This document shows, one piece after another, positions 1-35,742 of a stretch of 56,038 nt of DNA (positions are counted from its first letter, which is position 1; the number at the start of each line of letters is the position of its first letter). The translations under genes were made by a program, and so were the position numbers. The stretch spans positions 1-56,038 of the forward strand of contig CAZVGK010000022.1 of the NCBI GenBank assembly GCA_964626665.1. The letters run 5' to 3'. Below the pieces are notes generated by a model, which made no database searches, was not told the DNA's origin, and was given only the letters and a program-made list of their open reading frames with translations. The stretch is from an uncultured Gemmatimonadota bacterium (GTDB lineage Bacteria; SM23-81; DAOVCL01).

Positions 1-478
1 AATTAAGTTTTTTGAAAGTATTTTCACTGCTTTAATAGTTGCCTCTATGGGTGGTATCATCACGGCAGTCAAATTAGATGTAATAAATAATGTTTTAGTT
101 CTAACAGGATTGCTTTTGCTTCCCATTTGTTCTTGTATCGCACTTTACTTTGGCATACGAAATCTAAATCGAGAGTCAAGGCTTCTTTTTATCGAAGAAG
201 CGTCAATGTTTAAAATACTAAAACTTATTTCGTTACCTGATAAAGTTCCTGAGAGCAAAAGGTGGATACCTGGTGATGAATTTCTTCTACCACCGAAATA
301 CAGAGACTACAAATATGGGATGGATGAAATAAAGGAGAATCCTAATTTTGAAGAATGGCTTGATTTAAGAACTAAGAAGCATGAATTCTCACACGTCATT
401 AATTACCTATTTGCATCTGAAATAGTGATTTCTCTATTGTTAATCATTGCTATCATTTGTTATTACTACTTCGCCTAA
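1..478 (+). CDS. Integron cassette 1: membrane protein (about 3 TM segments), 5' end probably outside the window
   Basis: The frame is open from base 2 (IKFFESIFTALIVASMGG...). It has two N-terminal hydrophobic segments and one C-terminal one. The TAA stop lies inside the attC R'' box GCCTAAC. Confidence 0.75.
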   Translation, partial: IKFFESIFTALIVASMGGIITAVKLDVINNVLVLTGLLLLPICSCIALYFGIRNLNRESRLLFIEEASMFKILKLISLPDKVPESKRWIPGDEFLLPPKYRDYKYGMDEIKENPNFEEWLDLRTKKHEFSHVINYLFASEIVISLLLIIAIICYYYFA

Positions 479-583: not shown

Positions 584-1510
584 ATGTTAGCTTTGTTTCT
601 TGGAGCTGGCTTTTCAAAGTGGGCTGCGAATTTGCCAGTGGCTAGTCAGTTATTCGATTTTGATATTGAACCATGGGGGCCTCGTGAGTATAAGAAACTT
701 GAGGTTGTAAAATTGCTTAAACATAATTGGGATATATCTCACCCTTATGGGCTTACCGAACAATTTATAGCAGATGCATTGAATTTTCAGAAGAATAACA
801 AAGAGGCAGTTCTTTGGTATCTTGTTCGTAGGCTTTCGGAACCATTCATTTGGAAAGAATTTCATGCACAGAGATGGCGAAGACATGTCTTGATGATCGA
901 TGAAAACCGCAGATTTAATATTAATGGCGTTAATAAAACAAGGAGCTTTCTCCAACGATTTTGCGGTCCAGCATTGGCAGGCATTGTTACTACAAATTAC
1001 GATATGCTGGTGGAATATGCACTCGGGACAAAGGGATTTAATTATGGTGTTCCCAATCAAACACTGATGGGTCGAGGACCTTATCCAGTTTCTCAGTGGA
1101 GGAATCCCGTTGCACTCAAAGGGATGATTCCTCTTGCGAAAATTCATGGAAGTATCTCATGGGATGAAAATGCTTATTATACAGATGGGAGACGTGGATT
1201 AACGGGTCATGCTTTGATTGTGGCACCAACCCCCGAGAAACAACCCTCAGAATCTTTGAAATCTGTTTGGAATTTGTCTAAAAAAATTCTTAGAAAAGCA
1301 ACAGAAATGATTGTTTTTGGGTTTGCATTTAACCCTTACGATGAAGCAGTTTTGAATCTTCTAAAATTTGAAGGTAAAAATTTGAAGTCTGTTCCTTTAG
1401 TCGACATTGAACCCAACACTGAAGCAGCTCACATTCTATGGCCAAACGCTAATATTGTATCAGTAAAGCCTCCGCCAGACGGAAACAAGGAAATACAAGA
1501 TTGGCAATGA
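584..1510 (+). CDS. Integron cassette 2: stand-alone SIR2-like (SIR2_2) domain protein, probable NADase
   Basis: Motifs LFLGAGFS, TTNYD, KIHGS and VFGFAF are typical of prokaryotic SIR2-like domains; flanked by attC sites. Confidence 0.8.
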   Translation: MLALFLGAGFSKWAANLPVASQLFDFDIEPWGPREYKKLEVVKLLKHNWDISHPYGLTEQFIADALNFQKNNKEAVLWYLVRRLSEPFIWKEFHAQRWRRHVLMIDENRRFNINGVNKTRSFLQRFCGPALAGIVTTNYDMLVEYALGTKGFNYGVPNQTLMGRGPYPVSQWRNPVALKGMIPLAKIHGSISWDENAYYTDGRRGLTGHALIVAPTPEKQPSESLKSVWNLSKKILRKATEMIVFGFAFNPYDEAVLNLLKFEGKNLKSVPLVDIEPNTEAAHILWPNANIVSVKPPPDGNKEIQDWQ

Positions 1511-2828: not shown

Positions 2829-3275
2829 ATGATGAATATGGAGAATAAAGAAAATCTAAAAGAATACATGCTAAAGGAGATTGATATAATTCAGGATATC
2901 ATAAAGCGAATGGCATTTAACTCTTTTATGATAAAAGGATGGGCTATAACCCTTGTTGTTGTGGCTTTATTGTTAAAAGGCACAGAGAAGTATCAAGTTT
3001 GGCTTGCCTTTATTCCATTGTTAGTTTTTTGGTTTTTGGACGCTTACTTTTTATGGCAGGAACGGATGTATAGAAAGTTGTATAAATGGGTTATCAATAA
3101 TAGGCTGAAAACAGAAGAATATTTATTTGATATGGATGCTTACCGATTTAAAAATAAAGTTCAGTCAATACCTCGGATTATGTTTTCTATAACTCTAGGT
3201 TGGTTCTATGGTTCTATAGCAATTTTGGTTATAATTTACGCTTTAATATTATTAATCATGAAAGGAGGATGTTAA
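2829..3275 (+). CDS. Integron cassette 4, gene A: small 3-TM membrane protein, putative TIR-associated effector
   Basis: IQDIIKRMAFNSFMIKGWAITL...FWFLDAYFLWQERMYRKLY pattern and three hydrophobic segments; ends 1 nt before the TIR gene. Confidence 0.75.
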   Translation: MMNMENKENLKEYMLKEIDIIQDIIKRMAFNSFMIKGWAITLVVVALLLKGTEKYQVWLAFIPLLVFWFLDAYFLWQERMYRKLYKWVINNRLKTEEYLFDMDAYRFKNKVQSIPRIMFSITLGWFYGSIAILVIIYALILLIMKGGC

Positions 3276-3276
3276 A

Positions 3277-3720
3277 ATGGCAAGAAGAGTGTTTTTCAGT
3301 TTTCACTATGAATACGTTTGGAAGGTGAACCAAATTAGAAGCATGCCAAACGTTATTGGTACATCTGCTGCTGGATTTCAAGACGCTTCCCTATGGGAAG
3401 AAGCAAAGAAGAAGGGAGACAAAGAAATCAAGCGAATGATTGATAAGGGGTTAGAAAATACATCAGTAACTGTGGTGTGTGTCACATACGGTACAACCAG
3501 CAGGAAGTATATTAACTATGAAATTGACAAATCCCTTGAAAGAGGTAACGGGCTTGTTGCAGTACAGATTCATCATTTGAAGGATCAAAATGGGCAAACT
3601 GGCTCACCGGGAGCAATTCCTTCCCAAATCGAAGCGAATGGGTTCAAGGCTTACAAATACACGAATAAAGAAGCTTTGGCACGCTGGATAGAAGAAGCAG
3701 CCCAAAAGGCAGGGAGATAA
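3277..3720 (+). CDS. Integron cassette 4, gene B: ThsB-like TIR domain protein (DUF1863/MTH538)
   Basis: MARRVFFSFHY start, DASLWEEAKKK, TSVTVV, and the putative catalytic Glu in YINYEI followed by GNGL. Confidence 0.88.
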   Translation: MARRVFFSFHYEYVWKVNQIRSMPNVIGTSAAGFQDASLWEEAKKKGDKEIKRMIDKGLENTSVTVVCVTYGTTSRKYINYEIDKSLERGNGLVAVQIHHLKDQNGQTGSPGAIPSQIEANGFKAYKYTNKEALARWIEEAAQKAGR

Positions 3721-3751
3721 AATATAAGAAGGGAAATAGGCACAGTCCATC

Positions 3752-3783
3752 GTATAACACAGCATATACGCAATGCCCTGCCT
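3752..3783 (+). mobile_element. Truncated attC site 4 (left arm only)
   Basis: GTATAAC-ACAGCATATACG left arm is present and complements the start of cassette 4. No matching right arm or GTTRRRY occurs before the mod RBS. Confidence 0.65.
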
Positions 3784-3808
3784 GAAAAATGAATGGAGGA
3801 TGAGGTAA

Positions 3809-5437
3809 ATGGCAACGCTAATTTTTAAAGGGAAAACCTTTGTCCAGAACCATCATCTGGCGGTGAAGTATCATCAACTTGTTCCCAAGAAAGACAAAAG
3901 TTTGACGGATAAGGTTAGTCTCAATGACAACCTCATACTTCACGGTGATAATCTTAAAGCATTGAAAGCTCTTCTTCCCACTTATGCCGGAAAGGTGAAG
4001 TGTATCTACATTGACCCGCCATACAATACTGGAAATGAAAGATGGGTATATAACGACAATGTCAACAGTCCGATGATGCAGGAGTGGCTTGGGAAGATCG
4101 TAGATAAGGAGGATTTTACTCGTCACGATAAATGGCTCTGTATGATGATGCCAAGATTGAAGTTATTGAGAGAATTGCTGAAGGAAGATGGGGTTATTTT
4201 TGTGAGTATTGATGATAATGAACAGCATCATTTAAGAATGTTGATGGATGAAGTGTTTCAAAAGGAGAATTTTATAACAAACATTATTTGGCAAAAGAAA
4301 TTTTCACCACAAAATGATGCAAAATATTTTTCTGATAATCATGATTTTATTGTGGTTTATGCTAAAAAGAAAAATATATCAGATGAAAAAAATGGTTGGA
4401 TCCGCAATTTATTGCCCCGCACAGAGAGTATGGAAGAAAGATATTCCAATCCGGACAATGATCCAAGAGGACTATGGTCTTCAAGTGATTTATCTGTAAA
4501 AACTTACTCTAAAGATTATGATTATCCAATTACTACACCCTCAGGCAAAGTAATCAATCCTACAAGAGGGCGTTGTTGGAGAACATCAAAAAAGAATTTG
4601 ATGAAATTGATAGCAGATAATCGGATTTGGTTTGGTCCGAACGGAAGTAATGTTCCAAGAATCAAAAGATTCTTGTCTGAAGTTCAGAAAGGATTAGTAC
4701 CTCTTACAATATGGCTTCATAAAGATGTCGGTCACAATCAAAAAGCAAGACAAGAACTAAAAGAAATATTCTCGGATTCGGATTTTCCTTTTGAAACACC
4801 TAAACCAGTTGGATTAGTCCAAAGGATTTTACAAATTGCATCAGATCAATCTTCCATCATTCTTGACTCCTTTGCAGGTTCCGGCACAACTGCTCACGCT
4901 GTTTTGGACCTAAACAAAGAAGATGGTGGCAATCGTAAATTTATCTTGGTTGAGTGTGAGGATTATGCGGATAAGATTACTGCTGAAAGAGTGAGAAGGG
5001 TTGTCAAAGGTGTTCCAAATGCAAAGGATGAGAAATTGAGAGAAGGACTTGGTGGCACATTCAGTTATTTTGAACTTGGCGACCCGATTGAGATGGAGAG
5101 TATCTTAGAAGGGGATAAGCTCCCGAGTTTCCTTGAACTTGCCCGATATGTTTTCTATACCGCCACAGGCGAAGAATTTGACCCATCAAAAGTGGATGAA
5201 AAGAGAAACTTTATCGGAGAATCAAAAGAATATGAGGTTTATCTCTTCTATAAGCCGGATATTGAATATCTTAAAGCAACTGCTCTTACGCTTGAAAGGG
5301 CGAAGACTTTGGGTCCATACAAAGGCAAAAAACGATTGGTTTTTGCGCCCAGCAAATACCTTGATACAGATTATCTTTTAGAATACCGCATTGACTATTG
5401 TCAACTGCCATTTGAGATTTACAGATTGAAGGAATGA
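3809..5437 (+). CDS. mod: Type III R-M system N6-adenine methyltransferase (Mod)
   Basis: IYIDPPYNTG (motif IV) precedes LDSFAGSGTT (motif I), i.e. beta class, with an intervening TRD; upstream of a Res gene. Confidence 0.92.
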   Translation: MATLIFKGKTFVQNHHLAVKYHQLVPKKDKSLTDKVSLNDNLILHGDNLKALKALLPTYAGKVKCIYIDPPYNTGNERWVYNDNVNSPMMQEWLGKIVDKEDFTRHDKWLCMMMPRLKLLRELLKEDGVIFVSIDDNEQHHLRMLMDEVFQKENFITNIIWQKKFSPQNDAKYFSDNHDFIVVYAKKKNISDEKNGWIRNLLPRTESMEERYSNPDNDPRGLWSSSDLSVKTYSKDYDYPITTPSGKVINPTRGRCWRTSKKNLMKLIADNRIWFGPNGSNVPRIKRFLSEVQKGLVPLTIWLHKDVGHNQKARQELKEIFSDSDFPFETPKPVGLVQRILQIASDQSSIILDSFAGSGTTAHAVLDLNKEDGGNRKFILVECEDYADKITAERVRRVVKGVPNAKDEKLREGLGGTFSYFELGDPIEMESILEGDKLPSFLELARYVFYTATGEEFDPSKVDEKRNFIGESKEYEVYLFYKPDIEYLKATALTLERAKTLGPYKGKKRLVFAPSKYLDTDYLLEYRIDYCQLPFEIYRLKE

Positions 5438-11764: not shown

Positions 11765-12589
11765 TTGAAGAGAATAAATTGCCTTTGGCTATTTTGGGGG
11801 ATTTTAATTTCAGCCGCTGTGAATAGCCACCCTTCTAATGCCTCAGGCAATACCTTATTGGCGAGGGACGCCAGACATTTTCTCAATGTTGGCTGGGGTT
11901 TAACCCAGGCTCCACTTCACTTTAACCCTACCGATTGGGGGCGAACCTGTCTTCTGGCTGGCTCAACCGGTTTGTTGTTTGCCGTAGACAAAAATGTGAA
12001 AAGATTTACCCTCTCCCATCGCAGTTCCTTCTATGATGAGCTCTTTAACCTCGATCAATACTACGGGAACCGCTATACGTTAGATTCGGCCATTGGATTA
12101 TATGGCTTAGGCTATCTTCTTAAAAACAACAGGGTTCGCCTGATGGGGCTTTATTCCATAGAGGCGATCTTTTACTCGGAGAACTTAACGGCCTGGTTAA
12201 AAATGTTTTTAGGAAGGCGCCGTCCCTGTGCTGGGGAGGACAATCTGGTCTTTAAACCCTTTAAGCATCAAGCCCTCTACAGCTCTCTGCCCAGCGGCCA
12301 CGCCACCGTTGGCTTTGCTGCCTCCACTGTGCTGGCCAAATCACTCAATTGTTCCTACTGGAAGATCTTCTGGTACGGGGTTGGGGTGCTAGTTTCTGCC
12401 TCCCGGATTTACCACAATGTCCATTGGGTATCTGATCTATTTTTTGGCGGAGTAATCGGTTACAGCACGGCAAGCTGGGTGATGAATTTTGATAAGAAGG
12501 GATCAGCGAGCAGGAGCAGACATTTATTTGGAGAGATCTACCCCTACCTTTCTGTCAATGGGTGGGGGGTGCGGGTGCGTTTAAAATAG
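11765..12589 (+). CDS. PAP2 family phosphatase
   Basis: K...GRRRP, PSGH and SRIYHNVHWVSD catalytic motifs. Confidence 0.88.
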   Translation: MKRINCLWLFWGILISAAVNSHPSNASGNTLLARDARHFLNVGWGLTQAPLHFNPTDWGRTCLLAGSTGLLFAVDKNVKRFTLSHRSSFYDELFNLDQYYGNRYTLDSAIGLYGLGYLLKNNRVRLMGLYSIEAIFYSENLTAWLKMFLGRRRPCAGEDNLVFKPFKHQALYSSLPSGHATVGFAASTVLAKSLNCSYWKIFWYGVGVLVSASRIYHNVHWVSDLFFGGVIGYSTASWVMNFDKKGSASRSRHLFGEIYPYLSVNGWGVRVRLK

Positions 12590-12592
12590 GGG

Positions 12593-12619
12593 GATCGGGG
12601 TCAGCCCTTGACATTGGAC
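12593..12619 (+). repeat. Left imperfect inverted repeat bounding the larEBC segment
   Basis: GATCGGGGTCAGCCCTTGACATTGGAC; its reverse-complement partner is at 15877-15903. Confidence 0.6.
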
Positions 12620-12659
12620 AAAAGCTCTTAGGGGTAGCTATGGCAAGTATTACAAGGCG

Positions 12660-12697
12660 AGGTGGCATCCCGATTTATCGGGATGCCACCTTTTTTT
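12660..12697 (+). terminator. Strong palindrome / intrinsic terminator
   Basis: AGGTGGCATCCCGAT-TT-ATCGGGATGCCACCT followed by a T run. Confidence 0.75.
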
Positions 12698-12818
12698 AGA
12701 CTTCCGCAAACCATCAAACATTAGCCCCATCTCCGCTGTTTCATTCAGTGCTCGCTTTAATGGCTAAATCGCCAACTTCAGATTGCCACTTTCCACTCTC
12801 AACTTTCAGTGAAAAAGG

Positions 12819-12847
12819 TTGACTTTCAGCCAGTTCTTAGTTATTCT
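12819..12847 (+). promoter_or_regulatory. Putative sigma70 promoter for larEBC
   Basis: TTGACT-N17-TATTCT, about 230 nt upstream of the larE start. Confidence 0.5.
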
Positions 12848-13081
12848 GTAATAGTGTGATGGGAAGGTCCTTGGTTCCCGTGGATGGGTAGGGAAGGCGA
12901 AGCAACCATAAGCATTTGCATAGAGGCTGTTACAGTTATGTTACTGAAGTGGTATTAAGGGAATGAGATTTGGTTTATGGGAGAGCAGTCTTTATAATTT
13001 TATGGATTCCCTTATTTCTACATAATGGCGAATTAACCTTTAGTGAGTAAAAATTGATGGTGTTTAGAAGATGATTTATAT

Positions 13082-13906
13082 ATGAAAAAGTTTGGACTTT
13101 CAACGAAATTGAAGTTCCTGAAAAATATATTATCTGAGATGGGGGGCGTGCTCATCGCTTATTCGGGTGGAGTGGATAGTACTTTTTTACTTAAAATTGC
13201 CTCAAGTGTGTTAGGAGACAGGGTGGTTGCTGTTACTGCAACTTCGGAAACATATCCGTCAAGAGAGTTGAAGGGGGCCAAGAAAAATGCGAAAATGCTT
13301 GGCTTGAAACATATTGTTATCAATACGAATGAATTGGATAACGAAAACTTTGTATCTAATACTCCCAAAAGATGTTACTATTGTAAGAAGACGCTGTTTT
13401 CTGAGTTAGTAAAATTAGCGAAGCAATATAAATTAAACTATGTAGTTGACGGCTCAAATTATGATGACACAAGTGATTTCCGTCCGGGTATGAGGGCAGC
13501 CTCAGAATTTGGGGTGCGGAGTCCTTTAAAGGAAGCCAAGTTCAGGAAAACTGAAATCAGAGCTCTATCGAAGGAAATGGATTTGCCTACATGGGATAAA
13601 CCTTCTCATGCTTGTTTATCAACAAGATTCCCATACGGCGACAGAATCACGCGAGAAAAACTTTCAAAAGTTGAACTTGCAGAGGAGTTTTTAATGGGAT
13701 TTGGTATCAAGCAATTGAGGGTCAGGATTCATGGTAATATAGCGAGAATAGAAGTTTTAAGGGAAGATATGCCTATTTTTCTTGACAGGGATATATCAAA
13801 AAAAATCGTGAGGAAATTTGAAGCTCTTGGATATGTATACATTACTTTAGATATTCAAGGCTATCGAATGGGCAGTATGAATAAGCAATTAAAAATTAAG
13901 GAATAA
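13082..13906 (+). CDS. larE: LarE, ATP-dependent sulfur transferase for NPN cofactor synthesis
   Basis: PP-loop SGGVDS, RCYYCK, DFRPG, WDKPSHACLSTRFPYG and RVRIHG motifs. Confidence 0.93.
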   Translation: MKKFGLSTKLKFLKNILSEMGGVLIAYSGGVDSTFLLKIASSVLGDRVVAVTATSETYPSRELKGAKKNAKMLGLKHIVINTNELDNENFVSNTPKRCYYCKKTLFSELVKLAKQYKLNYVVDGSNYDDTSDFRPGMRAASEFGVRSPLKEAKFRKTEIRALSKEMDLPTWDKPSHACLSTRFPYGDRITREKLSKVELAEEFLMGFGIKQLRVRIHGNIARIEVLREDMPIFLDRDISKKIVRKFEALGYVYITLDIQGYRMGSMNKQLKIKE

Positions 13907-13909
13907 AAT

Positions 13910-14668
13910 TTGGAAAGAAAGAAGATAAAGAGACTTTTGGAAGATGTTAAGGCTGGTAAAATTGGGGTTAGCAGTGCAATGGAAGTTTTGAAATCATTCC
14001 CGTATGATGATCTGGGTTTCGCTAAAATAGATACCCATAGAGACTTAAGGAAAGAGTTCCCAGAAGTAATATTCTGTAGAGGAAAAACAATAGAACAAAT
14101 AACAAAAATCGTAGAGAGGCTTTCAACGAGAAATGAATTTGTTATGGCTACTAAAGCTGATAGGGAAATTTATAAAGGTATCAGAAGCATAAGGGAAGAT
14201 GCAGTCTATTATGAAACTGCTGGAATAGTATCAATTGGTCAGAGGGAAAAGAAAAAAACTACGAAAACAATATTAATAGTTAGTGCTGGAACATCTGATA
14301 TGCCAATTGCTGAAGAGGCGGCAGTCACCGCAGAAATCATGGGAAACGTTGTGGAAAGACTTTACGATGTCGGTACTGCTGGAGTCCATAGATTATTCTA
14401 CAATAAAGAGAAGTTGTTTAATAGTAATGTCATTATAGTTATTGCTGGGATGGAAGGGGCTCTGGCAAGCTTAGTTGGAGGATTGGTTGATAAACCAGTA
14501 ATTGCAGTTCCCACTAGTGTAGGCTATGGTGCCAGTTTCGAGGGGTTGGCTGCATTGTTAACAATGTTGAACTCTTGCGCACCGGGCGTAGTAGTGGTGA
14601 ATATAGATAATGGATTCGGCGCTGGATACTTTGCAAGCATTATAAACCAGAGGGAGGTGAATAAATGA
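13910..14668 (+). CDS. larB: LarB, NaAD carboxylase/hydrolase (PurE-like)
   Basis: AGTSD, AGMEGAL, AVPTSVGYG and LNSCAPGVVVVNIDNGFGA motifs; TTG start. Confidence 0.93.
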   Translation: MERKKIKRLLEDVKAGKIGVSSAMEVLKSFPYDDLGFAKIDTHRDLRKEFPEVIFCRGKTIEQITKIVERLSTRNEFVMATKADREIYKGIRSIREDAVYYETAGIVSIGQREKKKTTKTILIVSAGTSDMPIAEEAAVTAEIMGNVVERLYDVGTAGVHRLFYNKEKLFNSNVIIVIAGMEGALASLVGGLVDKPVIAVPTSVGYGASFEGLAALLTMLNSCAPGVVVVNIDNGFGAGYFASIINQREVNK

Positions 14669-16407
14669 ATGTAGCATACTTTGATTGTTTCTCAGGTATA
14701 AGTGGAGATATGATTTTAGGAGCATTTATAGATGCTGGATTCGATCTGGAAGAGCTAAAATCAGAACTGAAGAAGCTGAAAATATCGGGATACAAAATTG
14801 AATCTAAAAGCACAATGAGAAATGCAATTTCCGGGACAAAAGTCAATGTCCAGGTAACCAAGCAAACTGCGGAGAGACACCTGGATGATATCGTTGAGAT
14901 TATCGAGAAAAGTGATCTGAGCGATAACATCAAAGAGAGAGCCAAAGGAATATTCAGAAATTTAGCCGAAGCTGAAGCTAAAATACATCACAAGGATATA
15001 CACGAGATTCACTTTCACGAGGTGGGAGCATTGGACTCTATTGTGGATATAATCGGCTCCCTGATTTGCCTGGAAGGATTGAGTATCCAGACGGTCTATT
15101 CGTCGGAAATCCATGTGGGAAGAGGTTTTCTTGAGTGTCAACATGGAACTCTTCCCATCCCGGCTCCAGCCACAACAGAGTTGTTGAAGGATATACCAAT
15201 CTATTCCAGGGGCATAGAATCAGAACTAACCACCCCAACAGGCGCCGCAATCCTAAAAACTATATCCAAGGGTTTTGGAGACATTCCAAAAATGAAGGTG
15301 AAGAAAATCGGTTACGGCGCTGGAAGTAGAGAATTGGAGATACCAAATTTGTTGAGAGTCTATATTGGTGAGGTGAATGACTGTGAATACGAGGAAGACA
15401 AAGTTATTCTTATTGAAACAAACATCGATGATATGAACCCAGAGTTTTTTGATTATGTTTTTGAAATGCTTTTAAAGAAAGGTTCTCTTGATGTTTTTAT
15501 GACACCAATATTCATGAAGAAAAATAGGCCAGGGATCATGCTCGGTGTTTTAACTCGAGAAGATAAACTTGATGAAATTCTCTCAACGATCTTTACAGAA
15601 ACAACAACATTGGGGGTCCGAATTCATCGTTTAGAAAGAAAGAAACTTGTAAGGGAAATTGTTTCAGTCGAGACAAGATTTGGCAAGATAAGAGTGAAGA
15701 TGAGCAAAATTGGAGGGCAAATCAAAAATACCGTTCCAGAGTATGAAGACTGTAAGGAAATTGCGGTTAAACTGGGGATACCTTTAAAGGATATATATGA
15801 TGAGGTGAGAAGAACTGCTCAAGAAACGTTATTTGATGGATTGGATGAAGATTGTATGGTACCTAAGGCAGCTAAATTAGAATTTAAAGGTTTGACCCCG
15901 ATCATTACCATGAGACAATTGAGTTTCAAGTTGAAGCAAATTGGAGTTATACGAACTCCATATACTGATAGTGCACCATATCAGCCTGTGGAGGAGGACG
16001 AGGGAGATTTCCGTATAGTAATTGAGCCCCAATATACCGATGGACTCTATGAACTTGCCAGATTTCGCTATATCTATGTTATTTACTATATACATCAGGT
16101 AAAGCAAGAGGTATCAATGATTGTATCTCCTCCATGGACTGGTGGCGTAAATGTGGGCGTGTTTGCAAGCAGATCACCTGTTCGCCCGAATTACATTGGG
16201 CTTAGCGTTGTTCGTATAAAACGCATCATAAATAATGAGATTTTAACATCGGGCTTGGACGCGTTCGATGGAACCCCGTTGCTTGATATCAAGCCATATA
16301 TAAAGGACTTGGATGCAAAATCCGATGCCAATTATGGTTGGATCGAAAAAATGGATAACCCTGAACATCTCCTTTTACATATTAAGGGTATTCCCCATGA
16401 TTACTAA
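14665..16407 (+). CDS. larC: LarC nickel insertase fused in frame to a C-terminal TrmO/TsaA-like (UPF0066) domain
   Basis: Residues 1 to ~390: FDCFSGISGDM, HFHEVGALDS, TPTGA, ETNIDD, MKKNRPG, ETTTLGVR, PEYEDC. From Met416: IGVIRTPY, GVFASRSPVRPNYIGLS, DGTPLLDIKPY. No stop codon between the two parts. Confidence 0.88.
   Translation: MNVAYFDCFSGISGDMILGAFIDAGFDLEELKSELKKLKISGYKIESKSTMRNAISGTKVNVQVTKQTAERHLDDIVEIIEKSDLSDNIKERAKGIFRNLAEAEAKIHHKDIHEIHFHEVGALDSIVDIIGSLICLEGLSIQTVYSSEIHVGRGFLECQHGTLPIPAPATTELLKDIPIYSRGIESELTTPTGAAILKTISKGFGDIPKMKVKKIGYGAGSRELEIPNLLRVYIGEVNDCEYEEDKVILIETNIDDMNPEFFDYVFEMLLKKGSLDVFMTPIFMKKNRPGIMLGVLTREDKLDEILSTIFTETTTLGVRIHRLERKKLVREIVSVETRFGKIRVKMSKIGGQIKNTVPEYEDCKEIAVKLGIPLKDIYDEVRRTAQETLFDGLDEDCMVPKAAKLEFKGLTPIITMRQLSFKLKQIGVIRTPYTDSAPYQPVEEDEGDFRIVIEPQYTDGLYELARFRYIYVIYYIHQVKQEVSMIVSPPWTGGVNVGVFASRSPVRPNYIGLSVVRIKRIINNEILTSGLDAFDGTPLLDIKPYIKDLDAKSDANYGWIEKMDNPEHLLLHIKGIPHDY
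15877..15903 (-). repeat. Right imperfect inverted repeat, inside the LarC-TrmO linker
   Basis: The reverse complement GATCGGGGTCAAACCTTTAAATTCTAA matches 12593-12619 (first 11 nt identical). Confidence 0.6.
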
Positions 16408-16455
16408 ATAAGATGCAAATGAATGAAAATTGGCATCTCTACTGATGGAGCCAGC

Positions 16456-16998
16456 CTATCTGCCGAAGAACATACCTCCCCCCAAAAGCAGGGAGAGCAC
16501 AACCATCACCAGAGCGGTGAGGATGATCACCACCCCTGCCTTTCCCCTATCTAAGGAGAAGACCTCTATTATCCCCCGGGCGGCGATGTAGATCCCATAA
16601 AGGGCAGCCAGAGTTCCCACCAGCGGGATCCATCCGAAGACGCCTACGGCATTCGTATAGGCCAAGATGCGAAAGGATCCCTCGTAGCTTCCCTGGCCCG
16701 GGAAAAGCTGGGTGGAGAAGAGATAGAGAACGGCGGCAACCAGGAAGGTCATCAGTGTAGCCCCCACGAATGCGGAGAAGAATCCTCTGATCCCCCCTCC
16801 AAAAATAGCCTTAAGCAGGCCATTTGCTCCTAAACAGACCAACATAAAAAGGGCTGGGGGCAGAAATCCCCCCTCCCTGGGCATCTGACGGAAGAAGAGG
16901 GAAGGGTTGATGAGCACTCCCTTCCAGGTCTCCCAGAGGCTGCTGGGGAAGTTGCTGGGGTCAAATTCATTTACCGCTACCTTATCCATCTCATCCAT
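16456..16998 (-). CDS. YIP1 family membrane protein
   Basis: TWKGVLINPSLFFRQMP start, GSYEGSFRILAY and WIPLVG motifs, five hydrophobic helices. Confidence 0.75.
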   Translation of the reverse strand: MDEMDKVAVNEFDPSNFPSSLWETWKGVLINPSLFFRQMPREGGFLPPALFMLVCLGANGLLKAIFGGGIRGFFSAFVGATLMTFLVAAVLYLFSTQLFPGQGSYEGSFRILAYTNAVGVFGWIPLVGTLAALYGIYIAARGIIEVFSLDRGKAGVVIILTALVMVVLSLLLGGGMFFGR

Positions 16999-34686: not shown

Positions 34687-35742
34687 TCAAAACCCTTTAC
34701 AGATTCCGGTCTCCAGCAAAGCCTCTTTGGCCTTCTTTTCATCAACCCCTATCTTCTCCAGGATGGTATATCTCCCCGGACGGGTTTGGGGGGCCAGGAG
34801 CATGGCTTGAACTAACTCCCGGGGGGAGAGGCCAAGCCCTTCGGCGGTGAGAGGTAGTCCCAGGGCAGCTAAAAAATCTTTGAGAGATGCAAAATCTCCT
34901 CCCCGGAGATAGGTCGTTAAAATGGTTCCCAAGGCCACCTGCTCCCCGTGCAGGGCGGGCTGGGATGCCACCCTGTCCAAGCTATGGCTTATCTCATGCT
35001 CACCCCCGCTACAGGGCCTGGAGGAGCCGGCTATCCCCATACTTACTCCGCTTAAGACCAGACCGTTTATCAGTCTGGAGAGGAAGTTTAGATCAGCTAG
35101 GTTTGGTTGAGCAAAGCTCAAAACTGCCTCTGCCCCGGCTTCGGCGAGCAAGGCGGCGAAGTTGTCGAACCTGTCTTTTCCCTCTCGATAGGCAAGCCTC
35201 CAGTCCTCCACTGCCGAAAGGTTGGAGATGAGATCACCCACCCCTGCTCGGATCATTCTCAAAGGGGCATCTTTAATTACCCCCAGGTCAGCGATTACCC
35301 CCAAGGGCATCTTCGCCCCCAAGCTCATACTCCTCCCTTCGGATTTGATCACCGCTATGGGGGAGGAGATGCCATCGTTGGAGGAGACGGTGGGGATGCT
35401 TAGGAAATTCACGTTTTCCAAGTAAGCGGCATACTTCCCCACATCTAAGACTGATCCCCCTCCCACCCCCACGACCACATCTGGGAGGTGACCCCCGATT
35501 GCCTCCCGCACCGTAGATACGGCGTCGAGGCTATTCCCCTCTATCAGGGATTCCAGGACCTGAGAGCCCGCGGAGAGCCTCTTGCAGACCCTTTCCCCAG
35601 CAACCCCGTAGGTTGTCTGGTCGTAGAGGACAAGGGCTCTCTGAAAGGAGAGGCTGTGGGAGAGCAGTACCTCGGGGAGCCTATCGATTAATCCCTCTCC
35701 AATCTCCAACACCAGAGGGATGCTTATATCGCGGGAGATCAC
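34687..35742 (-). CDS. Glycerol-1-phosphate dehydrogenase-like (EgsA/AraM/Gtp1 family)
   Basis: GVGGGSVLDVGKY, PTVSSNDGISSP, SSRPCSGGEHEISH and LHGEQV motifs. Confidence 0.85.
   Translation of the reverse strand: MISRDISIPLVLEIGEGLIDRLPEVLLSHSLSFQRALVLYDQTTYGVAGERVCKRLSAGSQVLESLIEGNSLDAVSTVREAIGGHLPDVVVGVGGGSVLDVGKYAAYLENVNFLSIPTVSSNDGISSPIAVIKSEGRSMSLGAKMPLGVIADLGVIKDAPLRMIRAGVGDLISNLSAVEDWRLAYREGKDRFDNFAALLAEAGAEAVLSFAQPNLADLNFLSRLINGLVLSGVSMGIAGSSRPCSGGEHEISHSLDRVASQPALHGEQVALGTILTTYLRGGDFASLKDFLAALGLPLTAEGLGLSPRELVQAMLLAPQTRPGRYTILEKIGVDEKKAKEALLETGICKGF

What the first reader, a model, noticed from the sequence alone, without database searches (positions are those of the whole stretch)
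12593..15903. larEBC lies inside a 3.3-kb unit bounded by GATCGGGGTCA inverted repeats; the right repeat forms the fusion linker
Seen: left GATCGGGGTCAGCCCTTGACATT starts 4 nt after the PAP2 stop. Right (reverse complement) GATCGGGGTCAAACCTTTAAATT ends 6 nt before the TrmO Met. The enclosed genes are AT-rich relative to rimO/serS. From recall, GGGG(A/T)CA-type terminal repeats flank some RAYT/HUH (Y1) transposase elements, and an ATGGCAAG follows the left repeat as in such genes. Inference: a non-autonomous element mobilised a cofactor-biosynthesis cluster and created the LarC-TrmO fusion by read-through of its end.
Basis: partly seen in the sequence, partly recalled or inferred. Interest (0 to 1): 0.7.

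Follow-up and report, generated by a model that had tools for sequence, protein, structure and literature searches.

The report
Repeat remnant fuses larC and trmO
The two matching 11-base ends are real but are not partners: the right one is what remains of a small mobile repeat that lay between two separate genes, and a 146-base deletion inside it joined a nickel-cofactor gene to its neighbour.

Summary
GATCGGGGTCA lies at 12593-12603 (+) and 15893-15903 (-), and the arms match at 19 of 23 bases.

The 3.3-kb-unit interpretation does not hold:
- The arms belong to two different genus-restricted repeat families. The left arm belongs to F3 and the right arm to D.
- Both families carry the GGGGTCA head published for inverted repeats that flank RAYT-like tyrosine (Y1/HUH) transposase genes (TIRtron/TIRYT; GGGGWSAS motif).
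- A congener carries a 322-aa Y1 transposase gene flanked by D repeats. The window's own genome keeps only a stub of this gene.

A metagenome relative (91-96% identical locus) has separate larC (396 aa, with its stop) and trmO (165 aa). An intact 173-bp D-D inverted-repeat element lies between them. In the window, a 146-bp net deletion removed five larC codons, the stop, the left D repeat and most of the interior. larC now reads in frame through the surviving D repeat (residues AKLEFKGLTP) into trmO.

In the relative, the F3 arm lies on the other side of trmO. The low-GC stretch also includes trmO.

This is a new member of a known kind and of modest interest. One side lead: LarC N-domain plus TrmO-like fusions recur in other lineages. 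Earlier notes of this scan on other pieces of this genome also reported REP and TIRYT-type repeats.

The parts
12593..12603 (+). Left 11-mer GATCGGGGTCA of the finding
12597..12624 (+). Solo copy of repeat family F3 (RGGGTCAGCCCTTGACATTKGACAAA), head GGGGTCAG pointing left
   Evidence: There are 12 copies at up to 7 mismatches and 0 in a shuffled genome. The family is present in all three genomes of the genus. This copy scores 0.13 bits on the family-D matrix.
12659..12699 (+). Terminator-like hairpin (15 pairs) plus T run behind PAP2. The same hairpin lies next to Yip1 in the relative.
12689..13016 (+). Multi-copy module M: an 80-nt stretch (R80), a promoter-like site at 12819-12847 and most of the larE leader
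   Evidence: Copies lie at C59, C6, C47 and C11. The downstream genes are unrelated.
13082..13906 (+). larE (274 aa)
   Evidence: TIGR00268, 339.6 bits against a cut-off of 150
13910..14668 (+). larB (252 aa)
   Evidence: NF033503, 291.2 bits against a cut-off of 175
14665..15837 (+). LarC part of the fused ORF, residues 1-391
   Evidence: PF01969 matches residues 4-378. It is 96% identical over 391 residues to the unfused 396-aa LarC P0002.
15838..15909 (+). Linker, residues 392-415 (GLDEDCMVPKAAKLEFKGLTPIIT). It is built from element interior, the D repeat and the trmO leader. The deletion junction is at 15838-15840.
15872..15899 (-). Surviving right terminal repeat of a family-D inverted-repeat element, head GGGG at 15899. 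It is read in frame as AKLEFKGLTP.
   Evidence: It scores 40.5 bits on the D matrix. It is orthologous to the right repeat of the intact element in L026.
15910..16407 (+). TrmO/TsaA-like part, residues 416-580. It is a separate 165-aa gene in the relative.
   Evidence: TIGR00104, 123.1 bits against a cut-off of 93.25. The separate gene is L026 ORF 4243-4740.
12860..16431 (.). Low-GC block (0.375-0.42) holding larE, larB, larC and trmO. With my query, LarC was not found in the two congeners.
16456..16998 (-). Yip1-family gene. Synteny with the congeners G001 and G002 begins here.

Best explanation
The two arms are unrelated leftovers of two families of small mobile repeats. These repeats are the terminal inverted repeats (TIRs) of RAYT-like single-strand-DNA tyrosine transposase elements (TIRtron/TIRYT type) that populate this Zixibacteria genus.

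Shown:
- A 173-bp gene-less element with two 28-bp family-D TIRs sat in the spacer between separate larC and trmO genes. It still does in a close relative.
- In the window's lineage a net 146-bp deletion runs between two short imperfect direct repeats, CGTTATTTGATG and CGTCTTGGATG.
- The deletion took out the last five larC codons, the stop codon, the left TIR and most of the interior.
- What is left (34 bases of interior, the right TIR and 10 bases of trmO leader) is open in the larC frame. One 580-aa LarC-linker-TrmO protein is therefore encoded.
- The left arm is a solo TIR of another family (F3). It sits in a block (repeat, terminator hairpin, R80) whose position differs between the two genomes.

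Inferred:
- The D element transposed into the spacer after the low-GC lar-trmO block entered this lineage, because D is restricted to the host genus.
- The deletion arose by slippage or illegitimate recombination.
- The fusion is tolerated, because the LarC C-terminal tail is variable among homologues.
For: 1. The right arm is a D copy (40.5 bits; 31 copies at 22 bits or more; shuffled maximum 17.2).
2. D is confined to the genus. Counts are 23, 9 and 7 hits in G000, G001 and G002, 0 in 38 other genomes, and 0 for the reversed control. An exact scan of the species-genome collection gave 5 stretches, all in two other MAGs.
3. D occurs as head-outward inverted pairs of 94, 218, 274 and 427 bp with unrelated interiors.
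4. G001:C158 carries a 322-aa ORF with Y1_Tnp (4.7e-16) plus a DnaA-type HTH. Its best NCBIfam hit is REP-associated tyrosine transposase, at 78.1 bits against a cut-off of 80. D repeats flank it at 132-154 (+) and 1159-1181 (-). HYH and RYIHLNP motifs are visible.
5. G000 has a 323-aa paralogue (38% identical, 84.1 bits) flanked by another GGGGTCA-headed family. It also has a stub of the D transposase (68% over residues 284-321) abutting the D copy at C10:34923-34950.
6. Relative L026 has larC at 2845-4035 with its stop, a left D TIR at 4053-4080, a right TIR ending about 4225, and trmO at 4243-4740. The element folds with a 28-bp stem, z = -8.4.
7. The window aligns to L026 up to 15838 and again from 15841, skipping 148 bases of L026. 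The alignment shows a gap of 146 plus 7 columns.
8. LarC identity to the unfused P0002 (96%) ends at residue 391. All 120 listed best LarC homologues are 381-411 aa and carry PF01969 only.
9. The fused junction is bridged without differences by contigs of runs X20 (15704-16400) and X21 (15764-15984). A contig of run X22 carries 148 extra letters exactly there.
10. Published TIRs of TIRYT genes share GGGGWSAS and form moderately abundant families of singles, dimers and clusters.
Against: - L026 is a single 6.2-kb metagenome contig. Only the junction itself is backed by a second assembly (X22).
- X20 and X21 are salt-marsh runs of one year and may come from one campaign. X1 may be the source of the window.
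- No locus with larC and trmO adjacent and without the D element was found, so the insertion step is inferred.
- The D head is GGGGTCAA, which fits 7 of the 8 positions of GGGGWSAS.
- The G001 transposase scores just under the NCBIfam cut-off (78.1 against 80).
- No transposition has been observed, and no target duplication is evident at D pairs.
- Both arms point their heads outward and share GATC before the head. A composite element would look the same.
- How the F3 block came to lie left of the lar genes here and right of trmO in L026 is not explained.
Confidence: 0.85

Rival explanations
1. F3(+) at 12597 and D(-) at 15899 are the two ends of a 3.3-kb non-autonomous element. A Y1 transposase mobilised it with larEBC as cargo, and read-through of its right end made the fusion.
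For: - Both arms are genuine TIR-family copies with heads outward.
- They share 11 bases including GATC.
- Mixed-family head-outward pairs at kb distances exist elsewhere and enclose genes. Examples are D/F3 at C4 (1,113 bp), D/H at C17 around an AbiEi gene, and G/D at C36 around toxin-antitoxin genes.
- The F3 block abuts native PAP2.
Against: - The right arm's real partner is the left D TIR behind the larC stop in L026.
- In L026 the F3 arm lies right of trmO.
- Homology of the F3 block starts about 14 bases outside the head.
- The left arm scores 0.13 bits on the D matrix.
- Low GC continues through trmO.
- There are 35 head-outward pairs within 5 kb among 100 copies, 16 of them more than 700 bp apart. 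Such pairs are therefore common here, and this one is the widest.
Confidence: 0.06
2. The fused reading frame is an assembly or sequencing artefact, and the organism really has separate larC and trmO.
For: - The window is from a metagenome-assembled genome.
- Repeats often break or collapse assemblies.
- L027, the 100% identical contig, may be the same assembly.
Against: - Contigs from three runs bridge 15838-15910 with 0 differences: X1 at depth 131.9, X20 and X21.
- The long form appears only in a run from another habitat, with many other differences.
Confidence: 0.03
3. The D repeats are integron-type attC sites, and the lar genes are a gene cassette captured by a tyrosine recombinase.
For: - D copies lie mostly behind stop codons of small genes, many of them toxin-antitoxin genes.
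- The genome holds 23 matches to the integron-integrase model, many of them fragments.
- The head GTCAAAC/GTTAAAC resembles the GTTRRRY core site. This is my reading, and the consensus is recalled.
Against: - No match reaches the integrase cut-off, and all 14 control genomes ring as well.
- None of the 23 matches lies on the window's contig.
- D repeats flank a Y1 transposase gene, not an integrase.
- Copies are scattered over at least 19 contigs beside housekeeping genes.
Confidence: 0.03

Closest known systems
TIRtrons / TIRYT (TIR-associated tyrosine transposases; Di Nocera, De Gregorio & Rocco 2013, PMC3733652; abstract and the section 'REPs and tyrosine transposases' read)
   Same: - A RAYT-like Y1/HUH transposase gene is flanked by long inverted repeats. 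The downstream repeat overlaps the gene's 3' end.
- The repeat head fits GGGGWSAS.
- The repeats form moderately abundant families of singles, dimers and clusters.
   Different: - Here at least seven families share the head in one 3.2-Mb genome.
- The transposases carry a C-terminal DnaA-type HTH.
- The host is an uncultured Zixibacteria genus.
- One repeat has become coding sequence in a gene fusion.
REP / REPIN elements with RAYT transposases (Bertels & Rainey 2011, PMC3116915 and PMC3337134; search listing and abstracts only)
   Same: These are short gene-less repeats, often as inverted doublets, thought to be moved in trans by a single-copy Y1 transposase. They lie mainly behind genes.
   Different: - The D unit is not a palindrome. 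It folded better than nearly all shuffles in 1 of 3 copies tested.
- It carries neither the GTAG nor the CGTC tag.
- Doublet spacing is variable (94-427 bp).
REPs and other miniature repeats inside genes (stated in the abstract of PMC3733652; in-frame Rickettsia palindromic elements are recalled, not from a call)
   Same: Repeat sequence is translated as part of a protein.
   Different: The repeat did not insert into a gene here. A deletion joined two genes across the remnant of an intergenic element.
LarC nickel-insertion cyclometallase, and the LarC1/LarC2 split of Lactiplantibacillus plantarum (the split is recalled; PMC13510736 and PMC11796402 seen in the search listing only)
   Same: A full-length PF01969 domain lies in a larE-larB-larC cluster.
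   Different: The last five residues are replaced by a 24-residue linker and a TrmO/TsaA-like domain.

Membership tests
TIRtron / TIRYT repeat system | Y1 (HUH) transposase of the RAYT-like kind | tested here: met
   - PF01797 matches at 4.7e-16 (G001:C158) and 1e-09 (G000:C58).
- NF047646 scores 78.1 and 84.1 bits against a cut-off of 80, while the IS200 model scores 19.5 bits.
- HYH/HFH and RYIHLNP motifs are seen in the alignment.
TIRtron / TIRYT repeat system | The transposase gene is flanked by the repeat in inverted orientation | tested here: met
   - G001:C158 has D copies at 132-154 (+) and 1159-1181 (-) around ORF 154-1122.
- G000:C58 has repeats at 3329 (+) and 4383 (-) around the 323-aa ORF.
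TIRtron / TIRYT repeat system | The repeat head fits GGGGWSAS | tested here: inconclusive
   F3, B, E, G and H heads (GGGGTCAG or GGGGTCAC) fit all 8 positions. The D head GGGGTCAA fits 7 of 8 (consensus).
TIRtron / TIRYT repeat system | The repeat forms a dispersed family of singles, dimers and clusters | tested here: met
   There are 31 D copies, including 4 inverted pairs and a cluster of 3. Seven families total 100 copies, against 0 in a shuffled genome.
TIRtron / TIRYT repeat system | Mobility of the repeat by the transposase | not testable with these tools
   The support is indirect only. D is genus-restricted, yet it sits inside a low-GC block that was not found in the congeners.
Classical REP / REPIN | The unit is a 20-40-base imperfect palindrome | tested here: not met
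   Single D units fold no better than shuffles in 2 of 3 copies (z = 0.36, 0.27 and -2.42). The left arm gives z = 0.66.
Classical REP / REPIN | An unpaired GTAG or CGTC tag at one end | tested here: not met
   The heads are GGGGTCA. The tags are as defined in the abstract of PMC3733652.
   The left arm scores 0.13 bits on the D matrix and the right arm 40.5 bits. They belong to separate families.
   In L026 the F3 arm is at 5031, right of trmO, and both D repeats lie between larC and trmO.
   G001 and G002 share synteny only from Yip1 rightwards. rimO-lolA lie on other contigs, and the best PAP2 matches are 33-38% identical, with one short 57% fragment.
Nickel-pincer cofactor biosynthesis cluster LarE/LarB/LarC | Family models matched above their cut-offs | tested here: met
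   LarE scores 339.6 against 150 and LarB 291.2 against 175. LarC PF01969 scores 506 bits over profile positions 1-375.
TrmO/TsaA tRNA methyltransferase | Family model above its cut-off; tRNA m6t6A activity | tested here: inconclusive
   TIGR00104 scores 123.1 against 93.25. Only the N-terminal domain is present. Activity was not tested. A second paralogue (31% identical) lies on C13.

The most novel reading that the evidence does not exclude
The TrmO/TsaA-like protein next to larC may not be a tRNA methyltransferase. It may be a working partner of LarC in nickel-pincer cofactor synthesis.

The two domains are joined in at least three separate ways:
- Full LarC plus TrmO here, made recently by a deletion through a transposon end.
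- The LarC N-domain (profile positions 1-243) followed by TrmO_N in P0122 and P0123.
- TrmO_N inserted into the LarC N-domain, beside the conserved H-x-H-E region, in P0124-P0126.

In the last two forms the LarC C-terminal part is missing. The window's fusion would then have survived because the two proteins already act together.
Probability: 0.3. Interest if true: 0.65.

Novelty: new member of a known kind. Interest (0 to 1): 0.35.

Why it matters
This locus is a clean, dated example of how miniature transposon ends supply raw material for new proteins. The before state (relative) and the after state (window) of one locus show a deletion turning an intergenic inverted-repeat element into a 24-residue inter-domain linker.

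It also extends the TIRYT/TIRtron repeat class, with its GGGGWSAS head, to an uncultured Zixibacteria genus. There, at least seven repeat families share that head.

The side lead may be worth more. No paper in the library I searched links LarC with TrmO/TsaA. A recurrent fusion of the two would point to an undescribed component or variant of nickel-pincer cofactor biosynthesis.

Tried and rejected
- **Riboswitch in the larE leader.** Rfam at E up to 1 gave only two sub-threshold chance hits in 12400-13300. The leader is a multi-copy module with unrelated downstream genes. Rejected.
- **Empty site in congeners.** No clean PAP2-Yip1 junction exists. Synteny holds only right of 16457.
- **Classical REP.** The D unit is not palindromic and has no GTAG or CGTC tag.
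- **Integron attC.** See the rival explanations.
- **ATGGCAAG as a transposase start.** G001's gene starts ATGGCCCG. The 19-codon frame at 12640 overlaps the terminator hairpin, and L026 has 41 extra bases right after ATGGC. F3 elements of G001 have ATGAGCAA at the aligned place, which is suggestive only.
- **A transposase with F3 ends.** Only short Y1 remnants were found inside F3 pairs in G001. No full gene was found.
- **Target duplications at D pairs.** None is consistent.
- **lar genes next to close TrmO-like homologues.** None lies beside the 68% and 54% homologues (L036, G024:C81). In G003, larC is followed by another gene, which by my reading looks like holA.
- **Complex prediction of LarC with the TrmO-like protein.** No verdict: score 0.00 against a mark of 0.32, and controls were not run.
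- **RNA evidence.** No RNA holder is listed.
- **Technical.** timed out and was rerun.

Full report
**1. Observation.**
The left string starts at 12593, behind the PAP2 ORF that ends at 12589. The reverse complement of 15881-15903 is the right string, and it ends 6 bases before the ATG at 15910. The 11-mer GATCGGGGTCA is exact, and the arms agree at 19 of 23 positions.

The genes are rimO, a PAP2-family gene, larE, larB and a 580-aa ORF. That ORF has a full LarC domain (PF01969, residues 4-378) and a TrmO_N domain (437-550).

GC is 0.375-0.391 for larE, larB and the LarC part, against 0.521 for rimO. It is also 0.408 for the TrmO part and rises to 0.551 only at Yip1. The composition break is therefore not at the right repeat.

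**2. Chance.**
As a bare inverted 11-mer the pair is ordinary.
- There are 2 matches at up to 1 mismatch against 1.11 expected, and 34 of 100 shuffles reach 2.
- The window holds 115 exact inverted 11-mer seed pairs within 4 kb.

**3. Each arm is a dispersed repeat.**
Scanning the whole genome (window = contig C22 of G000) showed that the right arm matches a 28-base motif, GGGGTCAAACCT(T/C)TAA(T/A)TAC(T/C)AATTTAG. I call this family D.
- A position matrix finds 31 copies at 22 bits or more. There is a gap down to 16.9 bits, and the best hit in a shuffled genome is 17.2. The right arm scores 40.5 and the left arm 0.13.
- The left arm belongs to another family, F3 (RGGGTCAGCCCTTGACATTKGACAAA). 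It has 12 copies at up to 7 mismatches and 0 in a shuffled genome.
- Clustering all GGGT[CT]A-headed sites showed further families with the same sharp head: B, a B variant, E, G and H.
- Seven family strings at up to 6 mismatches give 100 copies, against 0 in a shuffled genome.
- These copies form 35 head-outward inverted pairs within 5 kb. Of these, 17 are same-family and 18 mixed, and 16 are more than 700 bp apart. The finding's pair is the widest.
- A uniform scatter of about 50 plus 50 copies over 3.17 Mb would give roughly 4 such pairs (my arithmetic). The repeats therefore cluster, and a mixed pair at 3.3 kb is unremarkable in this genome.

**4. What the repeats are.**
- D occurs as inverted pairs of 94, 218, 274 and 427 bp with heads outward and unrelated interiors. 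It also occurs as three direct copies on C18 and as many solo copies, mostly just behind stop codons.
- About half of the 20 D loci scanned have toxin-antitoxin genes nearby.
- D is confined to the genus. Counts are 23, 9 and 7 hits in G000, G001 and G002, none in 38 other genomes, and none for the reversed control.
- An exact scan of the species-genome collection found only 5 stretches, in two other MAGs. One of their record titles reads Candidatus Zixiibacteriota.
- Single D units are not palindromes.
Two of them lie between GGGGTCA-headed repeats.
- In G001, D copies at C158:132-154 (+) and 1159-1181 (-) bracket a 322-aa ORF. It has Y1_Tnp plus a DnaA-type HTH. Its best NCBIfam hit is REP-associated tyrosine transposase, at 78.1 bits against a cut-off of 80, while IS200 scores 19.5.
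- The upstream repeat ends 33 bases before that ORF's ATG. The stop codon lies inside the downstream repeat.
- G000 has a 323-aa paralogue on C58 (38% identical, 84.1 bits) between copies of the B-variant family.
- G000 has no close orthologue of the D transposase. It does keep a stub (68% over residues 284-321) at C10:34810-34920, directly beside the D copy at 34923-34950 and in the same geometry.
- F3 is also present in all three genomes. In G001 two F3 inverted pairs enclose short Y1 remnants.
- This matches a published class. Di Nocera et al. 2013 describe RAYT-like genes flanked by long TIRs ('TIRtrons', 'TIRYT'). Some of those TIRs share GGGGWSAS and form moderately abundant families of singles, dimers and clusters (abstract and one section read).
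- F3, B, E, G and H heads fit that motif fully. D fits 7 of 8 positions.
I reached it independently.

**5. How the fusion arose.**
- The 120 best LarC homologues listed are all 381-411 aa and carry PF01969 only. The best, P0002, is 96% identical and ends ...LFDEKRAT. Identity to the window's protein stops at residue 391.
- The contig encoding P0002 was recovered as L026. It has larE at 1263-2087, larB at 2090-2848, larC at 2845-4035 with its stop, and 17 bases later a D repeat at 4053-4080.
- A second D repeat in inverted orientation ends about 4225. Then come 17 bases and a separate trmO at 4243-4740.
- The 173-bp element folds with a 28-bp terminal stem (z = -8.4).
- The window aligns to L026 at 12684-15838 (91.0%) and 15841-16431 (95.2%), skipping 148 bases of L026. 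The pairwise alignment shows gaps of 146 and 7 columns.
- The break lies between CGTTATTTGATG at the larC end and CGTCTTGGATG in the element interior (my reading).
- The deletion removed five codons, the stop, the left repeat and most of the interior.
- The linker (residues 392-415) is made of 34 bases of interior, the right repeat (AKLEFKGLTP, residues 403-412) and the trmO leader.
- L026 is taken as the ancestral state. It has the normal LarC end, and that tail is variable among homologues.

**6. The fusion is real.**
Contigs of run X1 (possibly the source), X20 (15704-16400) and X21 (15764-15984) bridge the junction with 0 differences. A contig of X22, from another habitat, has 148 extra letters between 15838 and 15841. 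X20 and X21 may belong to one sampling campaign.

**7. The left arm is not the partner.**
- In L026 the block homologous to window 12583-12780 (F3 arm, hairpin, R80) lies at 5021-5262, between trmO and Yip1. A second copy of the 80-base R80 stretch sits left of larE at about 890-970.
- Homology of that block starts about 14 bases outside the F3 head. Other F3 copies have unrelated flanks there.
- In L026 the flank reads GGTC, not GATC. The 11-base identity therefore shrinks to 9 in the relative.
- L026 has a Phd antitoxin gene where the window has PAP2.
- How the block changed sides is unresolved. R80 begins a multi-copy module, so recombination between dispersed copies is a plausible route (inference).

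**8. The lar block.**
- With the fused protein as query, LarC was not found in the congeners G001 (90% complete) or G002 (97%). They have only a 32-35% TrmO paralogue, which G000 also has on C13.
- Synteny with both congeners starts at Yip1.
- rimO-lolA are elsewhere in G002, so no empty site could be shown.
- The block including trmO was most likely acquired horizontally (low GC plus absence in congeners; inference).
- The genus-specific D element entered its larC-trmO spacer afterwards.

**9. Side lead.**
A search with residues 405-580 among proteins of 319-1015 aa found 15 proteins. Five of them carry both PF01969 and PF01980.
- P0122 and P0123 have the LarC N-domain (profile positions 1-243) followed by TrmO_N.
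- P0124-P0126 have TrmO_N inserted inside the LarC N-domain.
- In P0125 the insertion comes right after a histidine-rich stretch and before the conserved DIIG region (my reading).
- All five lack the LarC C-terminal part.
- Against a tight link: the 68% and 54% TrmO-like homologues have no lar neighbours, and G003's larC is followed by another gene.
- No paper in the library holds LarC together with TrmO, TsaA, YaeB or PF01980 in a relevant sense.
- A structure-based test of binding gave no verdict.

**10. Verdict.**
- The 3.3-kb cargo unit is not supported.
- The thing is a new member of a known kind (TIRYT-type repeats), with a neat before-and-after record of a deletion that turned a transposon end into a protein linker.

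Noticed in passing
window 12689-13016; G000 C59:596-937, C6:69974-70400, C47:3044-3244, C11:52954-53261: The 330 bases upstream of larE (R80, a promoter-like site and most of the leader) are a multi-copy module with unrelated downstream genes. On C59 and C47 the module abuts a C-terminal fragment of a tyrosine recombinase. The larE leader keeps a matching pseudo-frame (GGIKGMRFGL... against GGTKGMRFGL...).
   Followed up: partly
L026:~890-970 and 5177-5262: In the relative, two direct copies of the 80-base R80 stretch flank the lar-trmO block. The F3-hairpin-R80 block sits right of trmO there, but left of larE in the window. This looks like a circular permutation of the same parts.
   Followed up: partly
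P0122-P0126 (protein database hits): Five protein clusters elsewhere join a LarC N-domain to a TrmO_N domain in two further architectures. All five lack the LarC C-terminal part.
   Followed up: partly
G000, 23 places (e.g. C52:515-1324, C59:361-591, C47:3254-3445, C28:42374-42487): There are many matches to the integron-integrase model, all below its cut-off and many of them only fragments. Several lie right beside GGGGTCA-headed repeats; for example, a G copy ends 8 bases from the fragment on C28.
   Followed up: no
G000 loci L105-L124: Family-D copies sit preferentially behind toxin-antitoxin modules: AbiE, MazE, PIN, ParE/Phd, HicAB, PemK and DUF433/DUF5615.
   Followed up: partly
G000 C6:71289-71386, C1:163499-163597, C14:47983-48081, C1:216269-216368, C27:50186-50285, C14:51009-51109: Family B forms six inverted doublets of a fixed 98-101 bp. 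This is REPIN-like and unlike the variable D pairs.
   Followed up: no
G000 C4:150737-151321; G002 C9:58743-59330: A LarA-type gene (Lar_N, 197 and 202 bits) is present in G000 and in G002, although LarC was not found in G002 with my query. The lar block of G000 may therefore replace or restore an older pathway.
   Followed up: no
G000 C13:62132-62581 and G001 C75:14754-15203: The other TrmO paralogue shows one TAG inside the match in both genomes. This may only be the alignment running past the natural stop.
   Followed up: no
L026:4765-5020: The 257 bases between trmO and the F3 block in the relative are a mosaic of other dispersed repeats. They have matches at 18 places in G000 (C3, C6, C14, C16, C19, C33).
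   Followed up: no
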